Positions 60,008 through 63,291 of a DNA stretch of 64,000 nucleotides are shown in pieces; position 1 is the stretch's first letter; the number at the start of each line of letters is the position of its first letter. A program made the translations under genes and the position numbers. The DNA is from Patescibacteria group bacterium (GTDB taxonomy: Bacteria > Omnitrophota > Gorgyraeia > Gygaellales > Profunditerraquicolaceae): positions 1,050-65,049 of the forward strand of contig DATJPV010000023.1 in the NCBI GenBank assembly GCA_035506195.1, given 5' to 3'. Under the pieces are notes generated by a model. That model was not told the DNA's origin. It did not search any database and saw only the letters and a program-made list of their open reading frames with translations.

Positions 60008-60724
60008 CTATGGTTTTGTGAGCACGTCCTGCATGGAATACAACCCCGCAGGTTTTCCAAAAAGCCATTTTGCCGCCCTCAGGGCGCCTAGGGCGAACAA
60101 GTCGCGCGAATGCGCCTGATGCTTGATCTCGATGCGCTCGGAGTTCCCGCAAAAAATAATCGTGTGATCCCCGACGATATCGCCCAGGCGTATGGCATGT
60201 ACCGGGATCTGCCTTTTTGTGGCTTCGGTCAAGACCTCGCCGAACTTCCTGGCCGTGCCCGAGGGAGAATCCTTCTTGGCCTGGTGATGCGCCTCTACGA
60301 TCTCGATGCGATAGTCGGGACCGAGCCTTTTCGCCAGCTCCGGCAGCATTGAGAATAAAACATTGACGCCGACCGACATATTGGGAGAGAATACAACCGG
60401 AACCGCATGCGAGGCCTCTTCTACTTTTTTGAGTTGCTGATCGTTAAGGCTGGTGGTCCCCAGCACAAGAGCCTTCTTGTACCTGGCCACATAGTCAAGG
60501 TTGGCTTCCGTTGCTTCAGGGACGGTGAAATCCACAAAGACATCCACCAGAAACAGCCCGTCCGAATTAGAGGATATCTTGATCTTGCCCAAGTCCTTGC
60601 CGATCGCCGGGGTCCCTTTCTTCTCCAATGCCAAGGCAATTTCGAAGTCCTTATCCTGAGAAGCCAGTTCAAAAATACGCCTGCCCATTCGACCGCATAC
60701 GCCGCTGATCCCTAGCTTGATCAT
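60008..60724 (-). CDS. dapB: 4-hydroxy-tetrahydrodipicolinate reductase
   Basis: 238 aa with GISGVCGRMGRRI and EAHHQAKKDSPSGTA. Confidence 0.95.
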   Translation of the reverse strand: MIKLGISGVCGRMGRRIFELASQDKDFEIALALEKKGTPAIGKDLGKIKISSNSDGLFLVDVFVDFTVPEATEANLDYVARYKKALVLGTTSLNDQQLKKVEEASHAVPVVFSPNMSVGVNVLFSMLPELAKRLGPDYRIEIVEAHHQAKKDSPSGTARKFGEVLTEATKRQIPVHAIRLGDIVGDHTIIFCGNSERIEIKHQAHSRDLFALGALRAAKWLFGKPAGLYSMQDVLTKP

Positions 60725-63291
60725 TTCCGCTGCTCCTGTGTTGAGTTACCCCAGTTAATTTTATATAAGTAAATCGTGGTATGCCCCGGCTCCTGCTGAC
60801 GCGCGTCTAATTGGAAATACTTCAGGCCCCTGCCCTGTAAAAAATACAACTTGAAAAAGAGAGTTTCCGTCAGAGGGGCGGTGCAGAGCGTCGCCTTATA
60901 GTTATCCGCCTCCTGGAAGAACAAAACCGCATAGTCCGCATTGCCCTGGCTATTGATCGTTTCCTTGAGGGTTTTTTCCGTTGCCCAGATGACTTTTCCC
61001 GCGGTTATCCAGCTGCCCGTTGTTTCGTCTCGGAAATAGGCGGCTGTTTTTTCCCGGTCTACAACTATGCCGTTATCGAACAGGATGATCTTACGGTTAT
61101 CCTGAGGGACGGGCTGCTGCGCGTAGTTTGTATAGAAGCGGTACACCGAGGTAGTCAGGAGCCCGGCGGCTTCGCTGGTATCGGTAAAAAGGAACCGGCG
61201 GTACAGCGTTTCGGCATCCTTGACGGAATAACCGAAATTCTGTTGCGCGTATTGCAGGAACGGGGCTTTCTGCCGACGCAGGCGAGAGAACTCCTGCCAC
61301 AATGCACCCAGGGAAAAATCGCGGTTGGCCATCCAGCTCAAAGCCCAAAGGTAGCCGATCATGTCGTTGTTAAGCATCAGGTATGCGTTCCGGGGAGACG
61401 CATAGAGAAAACCTGCGATCTGATCGCGCCTGTCTTTATCCTGGACATAACGGGCCAGAAGGCCCATGCCCTCTTCTTTTTTGCAGGCCACCAGACGGTT
61501 AAGCAGCTCCAGGGTCTTCAGCTTGTCGTTACCCATGGCGCGGCACAGTTCTTCGAATGCCTTATTGCCGGCCAGGTCTATCATGCGCAGTATGCCTTGA
61601 GCCTCTTCTTCGCTGCGCGCAAACAGCGCCCGAGAGAACCAGTAGGGAACGGCGTGGCTCTGCCAATGCGGGTCCTCGATGGTGGCGCGCCTGCCAAGGG
61701 TCATGATCCAATCGCCCTCCCACCAGTATGCGTTGATAATGGAATCAGCGGGGGTTTCCTGGCGCATATGAAGGAACATCTTCTCCCAGGTATCGTTTAT
61801 CGACGCATGGTAATGCATGGTATATGCCCGGGACACCGGTATCGCCGTCAATGCCAGAAAGGCCAAGCCCAGCGCCATCCGGTATGCTCGCCTGCCCTGG
61901 CACAGGCGCGCATATACTATATCCAGGCAGGCGCATAACGACAACACCAGAGGTGCGGCCAAAAACAAAAGGAACCTGTGCCCGAAATGGGACAACGCCA
62001 GCGACGCCAATAGCCAAACGAACACCACGGAGAATATACACTGCCTCTGCCTAAAATCGTGGAATATCCGCTGGTAATGCGTCAGAAAGAGGATACCGAC
62101 TATCCCTCCATACAGCACAACCGACCCTCCTGAAGTAGCCAGCATATCTATGACGCTGGCGCGCTTTAATTCCGCAACGGTAAACAAAGGATAAGGCCAA
62201 AAATTATCCAGCGATAAGCCTTGGCGCAGGGCCAAATATACGAAAGGCTCTTGTACCGCCCGATGCAGCACTGCGCGCCCGGAAATGGCCCATACGGAAA
62301 CCAGGGATACAGCCAAAAACAGGCCAACCTCCCAGAGTGCATGGGTAATCCGCGCAACAAGCGGCTCCTTTTTGTCGTAGCTGACGACACCGAGCTTATA
62401 GAACAGAAAACCCGCGCACAGGATATAAAACCAAAGCCACCAGCTCGACCACAGGGAGGAATATATCCCGATCAGGATGCCCGCCAGGGCCAAAAGGAGA
62501 AACCGGGGCCGGCCCTTTTCTTTAAAGGCGTGCGCCAGGACCGCGGTAGTAAGCAGCGGCATACATAGATTATAGATATCGGTATCAAACCAGCCGTAAC
62601 CGGACCTGGCCATGACAATGGGGGCAAGGCCGAAAAAGATACTGGCGATGAAACTTCCCATGCAGGAAAGCCCGAACAGGCCGCACAGATAAAAGAAAGA
62701 GACGATCAATACGGGAGAAAGCACCACTGGCGCAAGCCCCAGGGCGCCTATAAGCGACAATTTATCGTTCAAAAAATGCATCGCCTTGTAAAGATAGACG
62801 CTGATATAGAAATGCAGCCTTATGGATTCGACGGCATCCCCCCGCGGGGCAAACTCCAAGTCATCATACTCCCGGTTCTGTCTGATCGAGGTACCGAATC
62901 TGCCCGTGTCCAGATACGTCTGCGCACGGCGCGCCCAGCGGTACGCATCGGTTTCCAGGAGATAGGGCCAGCCGTCCTTATCCCGCAGGTAGTCCTTCAT
63001 TTCCTGGCTCTTATTGCGGATGGCCTGTTCTATTTTCGCGGAGTTGCTCTGGGCATACGCATCGAATGCGCTCTTCTTGATTCTTTGCACGGCAGGCTCG
63101 GTAGGGCGTTGCGGGTAGTCGGCGGATATCTGTTGGTCCAAGGCAGACTGGAGATCGGCATATACCCATTGCCGCGCGGCCCTGTCGATATCCCGCAGAA
63201 AAAAATTATTCAGACGGAAATAGGCATTGACGGCTATGGACGCTGCCAGCAAAACCACGCATATCGGGATCGCGTATTTCTGATTAGTCAT
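60721..63291 (-). CDS. STT3/PglB/AglB-like GT-C family membrane protein (putative oligosaccharyltransferase homologue)
   Basis: 856 aa with about 13 TM helices and a large C-terminal soluble domain. It has an ordered set of OST-like motifs: LLETDAYRWAR in the first long loop, GWFDTDIY (DxD), FTVAEL (T-[IV]-x-E-like) and AYWWEGDW (WWDYG-like; I verified the DNA at 61711-61725 as tggtgggagggcgat). Confidence 0.6.
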   Translation of the reverse strand: MTNQKYAIPICVVLLAASIAVNAYFRLNNFFLRDIDRAARQWVYADLQSALDQQISADYPQRPTEPAVQRIKKSAFDAYAQSNSAKIEQAIRNKSQEMKDYLRDKDGWPYLLETDAYRWARRAQTYLDTGRFGTSIRQNREYDDLEFAPRGDAVESIRLHFYISVYLYKAMHFLNDKLSLIGALGLAPVVLSPVLIVSFFYLCGLFGLSCMGSFIASIFFGLAPIVMARSGYGWFDTDIYNLCMPLLTTAVLAHAFKEKGRPRFLLLALAGILIGIYSSLWSSWWLWFYILCAGFLFYKLGVVSYDKKEPLVARITHALWEVGLFLAVSLVSVWAISGRAVLHRAVQEPFVYLALRQGLSLDNFWPYPLFTVAELKRASVIDMLATSGGSVVLYGGIVGILFLTHYQRIFHDFRQRQCIFSVVFVWLLASLALSHFGHRFLLFLAAPLVLSLCACLDIVYARLCQGRRAYRMALGLAFLALTAIPVSRAYTMHYHASINDTWEKMFLHMRQETPADSIINAYWWEGDWIMTLGRRATIEDPHWQSHAVPYWFSRALFARSEEEAQGILRMIDLAGNKAFEELCRAMGNDKLKTLELLNRLVACKKEEGMGLLARYVQDKDRRDQIAGFLYASPRNAYLMLNNDMIGYLWALSWMANRDFSLGALWQEFSRLRRQKAPFLQYAQQNFGYSVKDAETLYRRFLFTDTSEAAGLLTTSVYRFYTNYAQQPVPQDNRKIILFDNGIVVDREKTAAYFRDETTGSWITAGKVIWATEKTLKETINSQGNADYAVLFFQEADNYKATLCTAPLTETLFFKLYFLQGRGLKYFQLDARQQEPGHTTIYLYKINWGNSTQEQRK

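What the first reader, a model, noticed from the sequence alone, without database searches (positions are those of the whole stretch)
60721..63291. Divergent STT3/PglB/AglB-like oligosaccharyltransferase homologue inserted between dapA and dapB
This 856-aa polytopic protein has, in the order expected for STT3-family OSTs:
- a first long external loop with LLETDAYRWAR (compare DPYY.R / D56-type motifs);
- GWFDTDIY (DxD);
- FTVAEL (compare the T-I-x-E / SVSE loop-5 motif);
- AYWWEGDWI at residues 521-529 (compare WWDYGY), followed by a soluble domain of about 330 aa.

The WWDYG signature is altered to WWEGD, so acceptor recognition could differ. Its stop overlaps the dapB start (ATGA), and it sits 10 nt after dapA, so it is expressed together with lysine/DAP genes. 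Bacterial N-OSTs are known mainly from Campylobacterota and a few Desulfobacterota. A homologue in this lineage, next to a TMTC-like GT-C protein and a pilus locus, hints at unexplored protein glycosylation.
Basis: partly seen in the sequence, partly recalled or inferred. Interest (0 to 1): 0.6.

Follow-up and report, generated by a model that had tools for sequence, protein, structure and literature searches.

The report
Omnitrophota STT3 enzyme with remodelled sequon pocket
This gene encodes a genuine relative of the enzyme that attaches sugar chains to asparagine in proteins; it keeps the catalytic centre but has lost the hallmark WWDYG motif that reads the Ser/Thr of the N-X-S/T target site, so it probably glycosylates something other than the textbook target.

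Summary

D115, D236/D238, T371-x-x-E374 and R439 align to the catalytic residues of solved OSTs and are invariant.

RpoB places the organism in Omnitrophota, not Patescibacteria as NCBI labels it. The gene belongs to a monophyletic clade of 25 sequences that keeps every membrane catalytic residue. All 16 of its losses of otherwise near-invariant positions fall in EL5 and the WWDYG, DGGK-like and DK/MI-like blocks. It also gains D527, R118 and R122.

This clade sits inside the lysA-dapF-dapA-[X]-dapB-dapL operon. Canonical Omnitrophota relatives, including its sister group, sit at queA-[X]-tgt.

Best reading: an active archaeal-type single-subunit glycosyltransferase with altered acceptor (and perhaps donor) specificity, constitutively co-expressed with housekeeping genes. 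Substrates are unknown, and the protein is already auto-annotated "STT3 domain-containing protein".

The parts
60721..63291 (-). STT3/AglB-family gene, 856 aa plus stop (clade A of Omnitrophota STT3 homologues)
61807..63291 (-). N-terminal polytopic membrane domain (residues 1-495) with a long first external loop (about 31-158)
   Evidence: AF2 secondary structure. Hydropathy. Pfam STT3 N-terminal model covers residues 94-458.
62926..62961 (-). EL1 motif L111-LETDAYRWARR-122. D115 is the catalytic Asp of the first DXD motif. E113, R118 and R122 are clade-specific.
   Evidence: D115 aligns to AfAglB D47 and STT3A D49. D115 is invariant in 186 of 186 aligned sequences. E113, R118 and R122 are at least 96% conserved in clade A only.
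62578..62586 (-). Second DXD motif, D236-T-D238 (EL2)
   Evidence: Aligns to AfAglB D161-H-H163 and STT3A D167-N-E169. 25 of 25 in clade A; 160 and 162 of 162 in canonical relatives.
62170..62181 (-). EL5 TIXE motif, T371-V-A-E374
   Evidence: Profile aligns TVaEL to AfAglB T357-I-A-E360 and STT3A S-V-S-E. E374 is invariant; clade A shows [ST]-[IV]-x-E. The AF2 loop has low confidence here, as expected for EL5.
61975..61977 (-). R439, equivalent of the pyrophosphate-binding Arg (PglB R375)
   Evidence: Profile 'gvRF' aligns to AfAglB 'NRF' and STT3A 'VRL'. 24 of 25 in clade A and 162 of 162 in canonical relatives. Role of R375 from PMC6215017.
61711..61728 (-). Degenerate WWDYG block, Y522-W523-W524-E525-G526, followed by clade-specific D527
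   Evidence: Register. Canonical relatives: W162 W162 D162 [FY] G162 H154. Clade A: first W variable, Asp kept in 13 of 24, D527 in 23 of 24.
61660..61674 (-). DGGK-like block, D540-P-H-W-Q544 (canonical relatives have D-G-x-[TS]-Q)
   Evidence: The Gly is present in 159 of 162 canonical relatives and 0 of 24 clade-A sequences.
61339..61365 (-). Candidate DK/MI-equivalent block, D643-M-I-G-Y647-L-W-A-L651 (canonical relatives: D-M-x-x-K-x-x-x-[WI])
   Evidence: The Lys is present in 160 of 162 canonical relatives and 0 of 24 clade-A sequences, where it is replaced by I/Y/V/T/M. Equivalence to the DK/MI motif is inferred from the pattern only, not from a structural superposition.
60724..61806 (-). 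C-terminal periplasmic globular domain (residues 496-856), OST-type
63302..63970 (-). dapA (3' part; the gene runs towards the window end), 10 nt upstream of the STT3-like gene
   Evidence: TIGR00674 at 293 bits. Junction. lysA and dapF lie further upstream on the full contig.
60008..60724 (-). dapB; its start overlaps the STT3-like stop (ATGA)
   Evidence: TIGR00036 at 223 bits. Junction.
56479..59995 (-). Rest of the conserved co-directional gene string: dapL, folK, panC, aspartate dehydrogenase and an 83-aa repeat protein
   Evidence: The same order is found in clade-A loci L001-L003, L006, L008-L010, L012 and L035.

Best explanation
**Shown**
- The gene encodes a single-subunit, archaeal-type member of the STT3/AglB/PglB oligosaccharyltransferase lineage in an Omnitrophota bacterium.
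- It has the OST fold: a polytopic GT-C membrane domain plus an OST-type periplasmic globular domain.
- It keeps every residue that builds the metal- and pyrophosphate-binding catalytic centre: D115, D236/D238, E374 of a T-V-A-E motif, and R439.
- It belongs to a monophyletic Omnitrophota clade ('clade A') in which the periplasmic substrate-site motifs were rebuilt.
  - Changes already present in all or nearly all members, including basal P0016: the His after WWDYG became Asp, the pocket Lys was lost, the Gly of the DGGK-like motif was lost, and two Arg were gained in EL1.
  - Later changes: the WWD residues themselves decayed in sub-lineages. The query has Y-W-W.
- The gene moved from the ancestral queA-[X]-tgt site into the lysA-dapF-dapA-[X]-dapB-dapL operon, with translational coupling to dapB.

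**Inferred**
- It is an active, inverting, lipid-linked-glycan-dependent transferase acting on the periplasmic face, most likely still on an extended peptide acceptor, because TIXE is kept.
- It no longer reads the canonical +2 Ser/Thr, so the sequon is changed or relaxed.
- It possibly uses a donor with a different reducing-end sugar, because D527 replaces the residue that in PglB binds the N-acetyl group.
- Its operon position implies constitutive, housekeeping-level expression rather than a metabolic link to DAP.
For: **Family membership**
- Pfam PF02516 at 85.4 bits.
- PDB profile hits are OSTs only, best E=4.5e-28, with catalytic residues aligned.
- Foldseek: PglB E=1e-18, TM 0.69-0.70 on target, top 20 all OST.

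**Catalytic centre under selection**
- D115, D236, D238 and E374 are 100% conserved and R439 is 24 of 25 in clade A.
- This holds although the gene is the fastest-evolving in its operon: 35-42% identity against 53-79% for most neighbours in the same genomes.

**Changes confined to the substrate site**
- Of 51 positions at least 93% conserved in 162 canonical relatives, 26 are kept and 16 are lost.
- All 16 losses fall in EL5 and the WWDYG, DGGK-like and DK/MI-like blocks.
- The stepwise order of changes is visible.

**Roles of the motifs**
- WWDYG plus DK/MI form the Ser/Thr pocket, and TIXE pairs with the sequon backbone (PMC8342417).
- PglB Y468, the residue after WWDYG, hydrogen-bonds the donor N-acetyl group (PMC6215017).

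**Clade and relocation**
- Clade A is monophyletic with a long stem. Its sister group has canonical motifs and lies at queA-[X]-tgt.
- Synteny is bimodal between the two clades.
- None of the 8 clade-A species genomes showed a second, canonical copy.
- A contrasting tandem paralogue (L036) lost the catalytic residues instead, which shows what a dead copy looks like in this family.
Against: - There is no biochemical or glycoproteomic evidence of any kind.
- No lipid-linked-glycan assembly genes are in the 64-kb window.
- 13 of 24 clade-A proteins still carry W-D. In the query, Y522, W523 and W524 could still offer hydrogen-bond donors.
- Replacing the pocket Lys with hydrophobic residues resembles the PglB-type 'MI' variant, so a Ser/Thr pocket could persist in altered form.
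- In yeast, mutation of DK-motif K586 to Ala retains transfer activity.
- The AF2 alignment was shallow (10 sequences) and EL5 has low confidence.
- The absence of a canonical paralogue rests on a pattern-based scan of incomplete MAGs.
Confidence: 0.55

Rival explanations
1. Ordinary N-X-S/T oligosaccharyltransferase. The motif differences are tolerated or compensated, for example by D527 or Y522 standing in for the lost Asp and a PglB-like hydrophobic 'MI' pocket replacing the Lys. Function would be the same as in the canonical Omnitrophota and archaeal relatives.
For: - All catalytic residues and TIXE are kept.
- 13 of 24 clade-A members retain W-D, and basal P0016 retains the full WWDYG.
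- The Lys is replaced mainly by I/Y/V/T/M, resembling MxxIxxx[IVW].
- Yeast K586A retains transfer activity.
- No second STT3 copy was found in clade-A genomes, so this copy may have to carry the ancestral job.
Against: - W-W-D is 162 of 162 in canonical relatives, but in clade A the first Trp survives in 3 of 24 and the Asp position holds P/W/N/T/Q/E/V in 11 of 24. Pro at that position cannot hydrogen-bond a hydroxyl.
- The changes are coordinated across three motifs and are accompanied by new clade-specific conserved charges. That looks like re-specification rather than neutral drift.
- Pfam's STT3/PglB core model (PF21436) no longer detects clade-A proteins, though it detects their relatives.
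Confidence: 0.2
2. STT3-derived enzyme that no longer glycosylates proteins. It would use the lipid-linked donor for another acceptor (a cell-envelope polymer or lipid) or hydrolyse it to release free periplasmic oligosaccharide, as PglB and eukaryotic OST can do.
For: - The peptide-side-chain pocket motifs have decayed while the donor-side and catalytic residues are invariant.
- OSTs have a known LLO-hydrolysis activity.
- The gene is fixed inside a diaminopimelate (peptidoglycan precursor) operon, and the ancestral site is two genes downstream of spoIID (queA lies between), a peptidoglycan-remodelling gene. This is suggestive only.
Against: - The TIXE motif, which pairs with the acceptor peptide backbone, is retained as [ST]-[IV]-x-E in all members.
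- DK-motif mutations in yeast suppress hydrolysis rather than enhance it.
- The operon also holds folK, panC and aspartate dehydrogenase, so it is a mixed housekeeping string, not a peptidoglycan module.
Confidence: 0.17
3. Decaying or non-catalytic gene (pseudo-enzyme) carried along in an essential operon.
For: - It is the fastest-evolving gene of the operon.
- It has lost hallmark motifs.
- A catalytically dead tandem paralogue exists in the sister lineage.
Against: - The reading frame is intact at full length in 20 or more divergent genomes.
- The catalytic residues are 100% conserved at about 40% overall identity.
- New clade-specific conserved residues have appeared.
- The dead paralogue shows the opposite pattern, with catalytic residues lost.
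Confidence: 0.05
4. Member of a different GT-C family (ArnT, PMT or a DUF-type mannosyltransferase) that merely resembles STT3.
Against: - Those matches cover only about 355 residues, against 504-614 for OSTs.
- The C-terminal domain matches OST globular domains.
- Foldseek gives ArnT 1e-3 and PMT above 0.01, against PglB 1e-18.
- Pfam and PDB profile hits are OST only.
Confidence: 0.01

Closest known systems
Canonical Omnitrophota STT3 homologues (e.g. in Ca. Velamenicoccus archaeovorus LiM, locus L023) and related Woesearchaeota AglB-like proteins
   Same: - Same length and architecture; full-length alignment at 24-29% identity.
- Same EL1, DXD, TVAE and Arg catalytic residues.
- Same C-terminal 'LYF..G.GLK.F' motif.
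- Also embedded in housekeeping operons.
   Different: - The canonical proteins have strictly conserved SWWD[FY]GH, D-G-x-[TS]-Q and D-M-x-x-K-x-x-x-[WI], and sit at queA-[X]-tgt.
- The query's clade has scrambled these blocks, gained D527, R118 and R122, and sits at dapA-[X]-dapB.
- None of these proteins has been studied experimentally, as far as the searchable literature shows.
Archaeoglobus fulgidus AglB-L (PDB 3WAJ, 5GMY, 7E9S)
   Same: - Best sequence-profile match in the PDB (E=4.5e-28).
- D47, D161/H163, T357-I-A-E360 and the conserved Arg align to D115, D236/D238, T371-V-A-E374 and R439.
- Single-subunit enzyme.
   Different: - AglB has W550-W551-D552-Y-G-H555 and a DK-type pocket that binds Ser/Thr(+2).
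- The query has Y-W-W-E-G-D and no pocket Lys.
- The query has a much longer helical EL1.
Campylobacter lari PglB (PDB 3RCE, 5OGL, 6GXC)
   Same: - Bacterial single-subunit OST acting in the periplasm.
- Hydrophobic residue instead of Lys in the pocket motif (MI type).
   Different: - 12-13% identity; the query is not of the PglB lineage (nearest relatives are archaeal-type).
- PglB has the full WWDYG, and its Y468 binds the donor N-acetyl group. The query has Asp at that position.
- No pgl-like glycan assembly cluster lies nearby.
Eukaryotic STT3A/STT3B
   Same: - The profile aligns D49, D167/E169, SVSE, the Arg and WWDYG of STT3A to the family consensus.
   Different: - Eukaryotic STT3 works in a multi-subunit complex with a DNXTZNX[T/S] double sequon and a DK motif.
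- The query is stand-alone and lacks both.

Membership tests
STT3/AglB/PglB oligosaccharyltransferase catalytic subunit | Sequence homology of the membrane domain (Pfam PF02516 above the gathering score) | tested here: met
   85.4 bits against a cut-off of 24.5, residues 94-458. PDB profile hits are OSTs only.
STT3/AglB/PglB oligosaccharyltransferase catalytic subunit | Overall fold: polytopic GT-C membrane domain plus OST-type C-terminal globular domain | tested here: met
   [not shown]
STT3/AglB/PglB oligosaccharyltransferase catalytic subunit | First DXD motif in EL1 (catalytic Asp; PglB D56, AfAglB D47) | tested here: met
   E113-T-D115. D115 aligns to AfAglB D47 and STT3A D49 and is invariant.
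STT3/AglB/PglB oligosaccharyltransferase catalytic subunit | Second DXD motif in EL2 | tested here: met
   D236-T-D238 aligns to AfAglB D161-H-H163 and is invariant.
STT3/AglB/PglB oligosaccharyltransferase catalytic subunit | TIXE/SVSE motif in EL5 with the catalytic Glu | tested here: met
   T371-V-A-E374 aligns to AfAglB T357-I-A-E360 and STT3A SVSE. E374 is invariant.
STT3/AglB/PglB oligosaccharyltransferase catalytic subunit | Conserved Arg binding the donor pyrophosphate (PglB R375) | tested here: met
   R439 aligns to the conserved Arg of AfAglB and STT3A. Present in 24 of 25 clade-A sequences and 162 of 162 canonical relatives.
STT3/AglB/PglB oligosaccharyltransferase catalytic subunit | WWDYG motif (Ser/Thr +2 recognition) | tested here: not met
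   The aligned residues are Y522-W523-W524-E525-G526; only the second Trp and the Gly are kept. The motif is 162 of 162 in canonical relatives.
STT3/AglB/PglB oligosaccharyltransferase catalytic subunit | STT3/PglB/AglB core domain (Pfam PF21436) | tested here: not met
   No hit at E<=1 in the query. Absent from the precomputed domains of P0001-P0007 but present in P0008-P0010.
STT3/AglB/PglB oligosaccharyltransferase catalytic subunit | DGGK or DNXTZNX[T/S] motif | tested here: inconclusive
   The query has D540-P-H-W-Q544. The Asp and Gln are kept (18 of 24 in clade A), while the Gly (159 of 162 canonical) is lost in all clade-A members.
STT3/AglB/PglB oligosaccharyltransferase catalytic subunit | DK (DxxKxxx[MI]) or MI (MxxIxxx[IVW]) motif | tested here: inconclusive
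   Canonical relatives have D-M-x-x-K-x-x-x-[WI] (K in 160 of 162). The query has D643-M-I-G-Y647-L-W-A-L651. The Lys is lost in all clade-A members but replaced by mostly hydrophobic residues, which is MI-like. Equivalence was not verified by superposition.
STT3/AglB/PglB oligosaccharyltransferase catalytic subunit | Transfers a lipid-linked glycan to Asn of N-X-S/T | not testable with these tools
   Needs biochemistry or glycoproteomics.
Bacterial pgl-type N-glycosylation system (PglB with its pgl gene cluster) | OST encoded together with lipid-linked glycan assembly genes (initiating phosphoglycosyltransferase, glycosyltransferases, flippase) | tested here: not met
   The window (12-64 kb annotated) holds housekeeping genes, a type IV pilus/T2SS-like cluster and one TPR membrane protein, with no such genes. 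Related loci show the same.
Other GT-C families (ArnT, PMT/TMTC, DPY19, Alg) | Best profile or fold match to that family | tested here: not met
   [not shown]

The most novel reading that the evidence does not exclude
A bacterial lineage inherited an archaeal-type oligosaccharyltransferase and then naturally dismantled the universal WWDYG Ser/Thr-reading pocket while keeping catalysis. On this reading, clade-A Omnitrophota perform Asn (or other) glycosylation with a new or relaxed acceptor rule, and perhaps a different reducing-end sugar. They would be the first natural STT3-family enzymes that do not depend on N-X-S/T.
Probability: 0.4. Interest if true: 0.75.

Novelty: new variant of a known kind. 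Interest (0 to 1): 0.55.

Why it matters
WWDYG is treated as the universal signature of N-oligosaccharyltransferases in all three domains, and the N-X-S/T rule follows from it.

- **A natural experiment on the sequon rule.** This clade is under clear purifying selection on the catalytic centre but has a rebuilt acceptor pocket. It shows how the sequon rule can change.
- **Enzyme engineering.** The clade is a candidate source of enzymes with relaxed or novel site specificity for glyco-engineering.
- **Phylum-wide distribution.** Archaeal-type OSTs appear fixed in housekeeping operons across Omnitrophota, a largely uncultured phylum of ultra-small bacteria that includes the archaea-associated Ca. 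Velamenicoccus archaeovorus. Protein glycosylation has not been examined in this phylum.
- **Gene transfer.** The distribution points to archaea-to-bacteria transfer of the gene.

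Tried and rejected
- **Single-sequence searches.** phmmer against the PDB and NCBIfam both found nothing. Profiles were needed.
- **Word-indexed homologue search.** It returned only 10-11 relatives even with a profile. The exhaustive representative search and the genome scan were needed to see the family.
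Rejected on alignment.
- **Functional link to DAP or peptidoglycan.** Considered but not adopted. The operon also holds folK, panC and aspDH, and the canonical clade sits between tRNA-modification genes.
- **'TMTC-like' neighbour.** Only TPR hits were found, so it is left unverified.
- **Glycan-assembly genes in the window.** None found.
- **Literature.** Searches for Omnitrophota/Omnitrophica with OST, STT3 or N-glycosylation, and for WWDYG with DPANN, found nothing relevant.
- **NJ tree.** It is unrooted and simple, and the outgroup P0011 was filtered out as too short. I use it only for clade-A monophyly and its sister group, not for the direction of transfer.
- **Geometry.** I could not measure distances between model residues or superpose on 5OGL, because model coordinates are not exposed.

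Full report
**1. The observation**

The window has an 856-codon ORF at 60721-63291 on the minus strand. It lies 10 nt downstream of the dapA stop, and its own stop overlaps the dapB start as ATGA. The neighbours are firmly identified: dapA (TIGR00674, 293 bits), dapB (TIGR00036, 223 bits) and LL-diaminopimelate aminotransferase (593 bits).

On the full public contig the string reads lysA-dapF-dapA-[X]-dapB-dapL-folK-panC-aspartate dehydrogenase-(80 aa)-TPR membrane protein-uvrA.

**2. Family assignment**

- Pfam gives one significant family, STT3 N-terminal (PF02516), at 85.4 bits against a 24.5 cut-off, covering residues 94-458. NCBIfam and single-sequence PDB searches find nothing.
- A 10-sequence family profile hits only oligosaccharyltransferase chains in the PDB.
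- A 43-sequence profile raises this to E=4.5e-28 for A. fulgidus AglB, 7e-26 for human STT3A and 3e-25 for C. lari PglB.
- An AlphaFold2 model (pLDDT 80, pTM 0.75) has PglB as its best Foldseek match (E=1e-18, TM 0.69-0.70 on the target). The first 20 hits are all OSTs. DPY19, AftA, ALG12, ArnT and PMT follow many orders of magnitude lower.

**3. Catalytic positions**

| Query | A. fulgidus AglB | Human STT3A |
|---|---|---|
| L-x-x-x-D115 | G-G-N-D47 | D49 |
| G-W-F-D236-T-D238 | G-F-N-D161-H-H163 | D167-N-E169 |
| T371-V-A-E374 | T357-I-A-E360 | S-V-S-E |
| R439 | conserved Arg | conserved Arg |

These correspondences come from the profile alignments. The roles of these motifs, and of PglB R375 and Y468, are described in PMC8342417 and PMC6215017.

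Canonical relatives and AfAglB W550-W551-D552-Y-G-H555 align to Y522-W523-W524-E525-G526-D527. The Asp is replaced by W524, and D527 is the residue after the motif.

**4. Who has it**

The identical protein is in NCBI as HTY44971.1, 'STT3 domain-containing protein [Patescibacteria group bacterium]'. The window's RpoB is 84-87% identical to many proteins labelled Omnitrophica or Omnitrophota. All close STT3 relatives are also Omnitrophota, so the Patescibacteria label looks wrong.

A scan of one genome per GTDB species found 29 loci. Twenty-seven are in MAGs labelled Omnitrophota (or mislabelled 'Planctomycetia' or 'bacterium'), including the complete genome of Ca. Velamenicoccus archaeovorus. 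Two are in Woesearchaeota. The scan used motifs typical of this family, so it says little about more distant taxa.

An exhaustive profile search of 1.84 billion cluster representatives found 1372 proteins at E<=1e-30. The best 150 are full-length matches, many of them longer and of the Woesearchaeota-like type.

**5. Two clades, two fixed genomic positions**

Sequences at least 32% identical to the query (25 in all; 'clade A') form a monophyletic group with a long stem in a neighbour-joining tree. Their sister is a group of four proteins with fully canonical motifs.

- Clade A lies at lysA-dapF-dapA-[X]-dapB-dapL-folK-panC-aspDH in 11 of 13 loci.
- Canonical Omnitrophota proteins lie at ruvB-queH-spoIID-queA-[X]-tgt-trmD in essentially every locus.
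- The canonical sister group also lies at queA-[X]-tgt.

The move into the dap operon and the motif changes therefore both map to the clade-A stem. None of the eight clade-A species genomes yielded a second, canonical copy, although the scan patterns match both clades. This suggests replacement rather than an extra paralogue, with the caveat that the MAGs are incomplete.

**6. What changed**

I took all 51 alignment positions that are at least 93% conserved among 162 canonical relatives.

- Clade A keeps 26 of them, including D115, D236, D238, E374, R439, W523 and G526.
- It loses 16. All 16 lie in four places:
  - EL5: N367, and the conservative changes T371S and V372I.
  - The WWDYG block: positions 521, 522, 524, 527, 529.
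  - The DGGK-like block: positions 537, 539, 541.
  - A block 120 residues downstream: positions 641, 643, 644, 647, 655.

| Block | Canonical relatives (n=162) | Clade A |
|---|---|---|
| WWDYG +1 | W162 W162 D162 [FY] G162 H154 | first Trp in 3 of 24; Asp in 13 of 24 (otherwise P/W/N/T/Q/E/V); His replaced by Asp in 23 of 24 |
| DGGK-like | D162 G159 ... Q162 | Gly in 0 of 24 |
| Downstream block | D153 M155 x x K160 x x x W129/I30 | Lys in 0 of 24, replaced by I/Y/V/T/M |

The pattern of the downstream block matches the DK/MI motif, but I could not verify that by superposition.

Clade A also gains its own conserved residues: E113, R118 and R122 beside the catalytic D115, plus D527, T537, Y630 and R673.

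The ordered table shows the sequence of events. Basal P0016 still has WWDYG but already has the Asp after the motif and no Lys. Later branches lose the first Trp and then the Asp. The query and its 81% relative have Y-W-W-E-G-D.

**7. Selection**

The gene is the fastest-evolving member of its operon. It shows 35-42% identity, against 74-79% for DapA, 76-78% for DapB (46% in L008), 70-74% for DapL (50% in L008) and 53-61% for DapF, FolK, PanC and AspDH in the same genomes. Even so, the catalytic residues are invariant.

A useful contrast turned up in the sister-group locus L036. A 622-aa tandem paralogue (hhalign probability 100%, 31% identity to its neighbour) has lost the catalytic residues themselves: GWAGLEP for GWFDTDP, no TVAE, Arg to Lys, and WWNFGG. 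That is what a dead copy looks like here. Clade A shows the opposite pattern.

**8. Mechanism**

*Shown.* The protein has the OST fold, an intact metal- and pyrophosphate-binding catalytic centre, a retained TIXE, a rebuilt periplasmic substrate site, and a conserved operon position with translational coupling.

*Inferred from established OST mechanism (PMC8342417, PMC6215017).*
- The enzyme still binds a polyprenyl-(di)phosphate-linked glycan and a divalent cation through D115, D236, D238, E374 and R439.
- It probably still binds an extended peptide through TIXE backbone pairing.
- WWDYG and DK/MI form the Ser/Thr(+2) pocket, so the clade-wide decay of these positions argues that +2 Ser/Thr recognition has been changed or relaxed.
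[quoted passage not shown] The His-to-Asp switch at that position may therefore reflect a different donor sugar, or compensation for the lost Asp.
- The new EL1 arginines could create a new electrostatic determinant for the acceptor.

I put about 0.55 on 'active OST-type transferase with altered specificity'. The rivals are: ordinary N-X-S/T OST, about 0.2; non-protein acceptor or LLO hydrolase, about 0.17; pseudo-enzyme, about 0.05; another GT-C family, about 0.01.

**9. Context**

The window contains no glycan-assembly genes. The annotated part (12-64 kb) holds ksgA, pdxA, surA, mfd, secDF, trpE, the his genes, alaS, recX, htrA, recA, radical-SAM enzymes, a type IV pilus/T2SS-like cluster, exbBD, TPR proteins and uvrA. 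The position of the gene in mixed housekeeping strings, in both clades, argues for constitutive expression. I do not read a specific DAP or peptidoglycan link into it.

**10. Comparison and novelty**

The protein is an evolutionary member of the STT3/AglB/PglB family. It meets seven of the defining features tested: Pfam membrane domain, fold, both DXD motifs, TIXE, and the Arg. It fails the WWDYG motif and the PF21436 core-domain model. It is inconclusive for DGGK and DK/MI. I therefore file it as a new variant of a known kind, not as a canonical OST.

Family-level annotation already exists in NCBI. I found no paper on Omnitrophota OSTs or on a natural WWD-less STT3 clade in the searchable library. 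[quoted passage not shown]

**11. Limits**

- There are no experimental data.
- The AF2 alignment was shallow and EL5 has low confidence.
- No coordinates were available to measure the pocket geometry.
- The tree is a simple unrooted NJ tree.
- Clade A is defined by an identity threshold, though it is confirmed as monophyletic.
- The genome scan is pattern-biased and the MAGs are incomplete.

Noticed in passing
L036:8580-10448 (+), between the canonical STT3 (6001-8568) and tgt: A 622-aa tandem STT3 paralogue in the sister lineage (hhalign probability 100% to the family; 31% identity to its neighbour P0042). It has lost the catalytic residues: GWAGLEP for GWFDTDP, EL1 mostly deleted, no TVAE, Arg to Lys, WWNFGG. 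It looks like a pseudo-enzyme or accessory subunit. It is also present in a second contig (L037).
   Followed up: partly
window 56479-56730 (-): An 83-aa basic protein made of two ~40-aa repeats (…GYLY[YF][IL]DK[QK]GDVSCAKM…). It has no Pfam family yet is 75-96% identical across clade-A loci, more conserved than most enzymes of the operon. Function unknown.
   Followed up: partly
Only TPR models matched in Pfam, NCBIfam and the PDB, so the membrane part remains unassigned. It is present after the 83-aa gene in L001 and L035 but not detected in other clade-A loci.
   Followed up: partly
whole window; protein HTY44971.1: NCBI labels the source MAG 'Patescibacteria group bacterium'. The window's RpoB (5493-8897) is 84-87% identical to many Omnitrophica/Omnitrophota RpoB proteins, and the window encodes full DAP, His, pantothenate and folate steps. 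The taxonomic label is probably wrong.
   Followed up: yes
window 37134-46372 (-): A type IV pilus/T2SS-like cluster: three pilin-like genes with N-terminal methylation motifs (37134-37760, 38125-38523, 38596-39072), PilC/T2SS-F, PilB/T2SS-E with an MshEN domain, a secretin, a PilO-like gene and a PilM-PilN fusion. Pilins are classical glycosylation targets in archaea and bacteria, but no link to the STT3-like gene was tested.
   Followed up: no
L004, L013, L015-L032, L036 (canonical Omnitrophota loci): The canonical STT3 homologue is fixed between queA and tgt (tRNA queuosine genes), downstream of ruvB-queH-spoIID, across about 20 Omnitrophota species including Ca. Velamenicoccus archaeovorus. 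This is an unusually stable housekeeping position for a glycosylation enzyme.
   Followed up: partly
L017 and L029: Two different canonical STT3 copies, each followed by tgt, come from the same MAG (MEGAHIT-group-0.624). This is most simply explained by two strains binned together rather than by a true duplication.
   Followed up: no
P0010 (JGI metagenome protein, 961 aa): An archaeal-type STT3 homologue with a C-terminal parvulin-type peptidyl-prolyl isomerase fusion (PF13145, PF00639, PF13616). The fusion hints at coupling of glycosylation with folding of secreted substrates.
   Followed up: no
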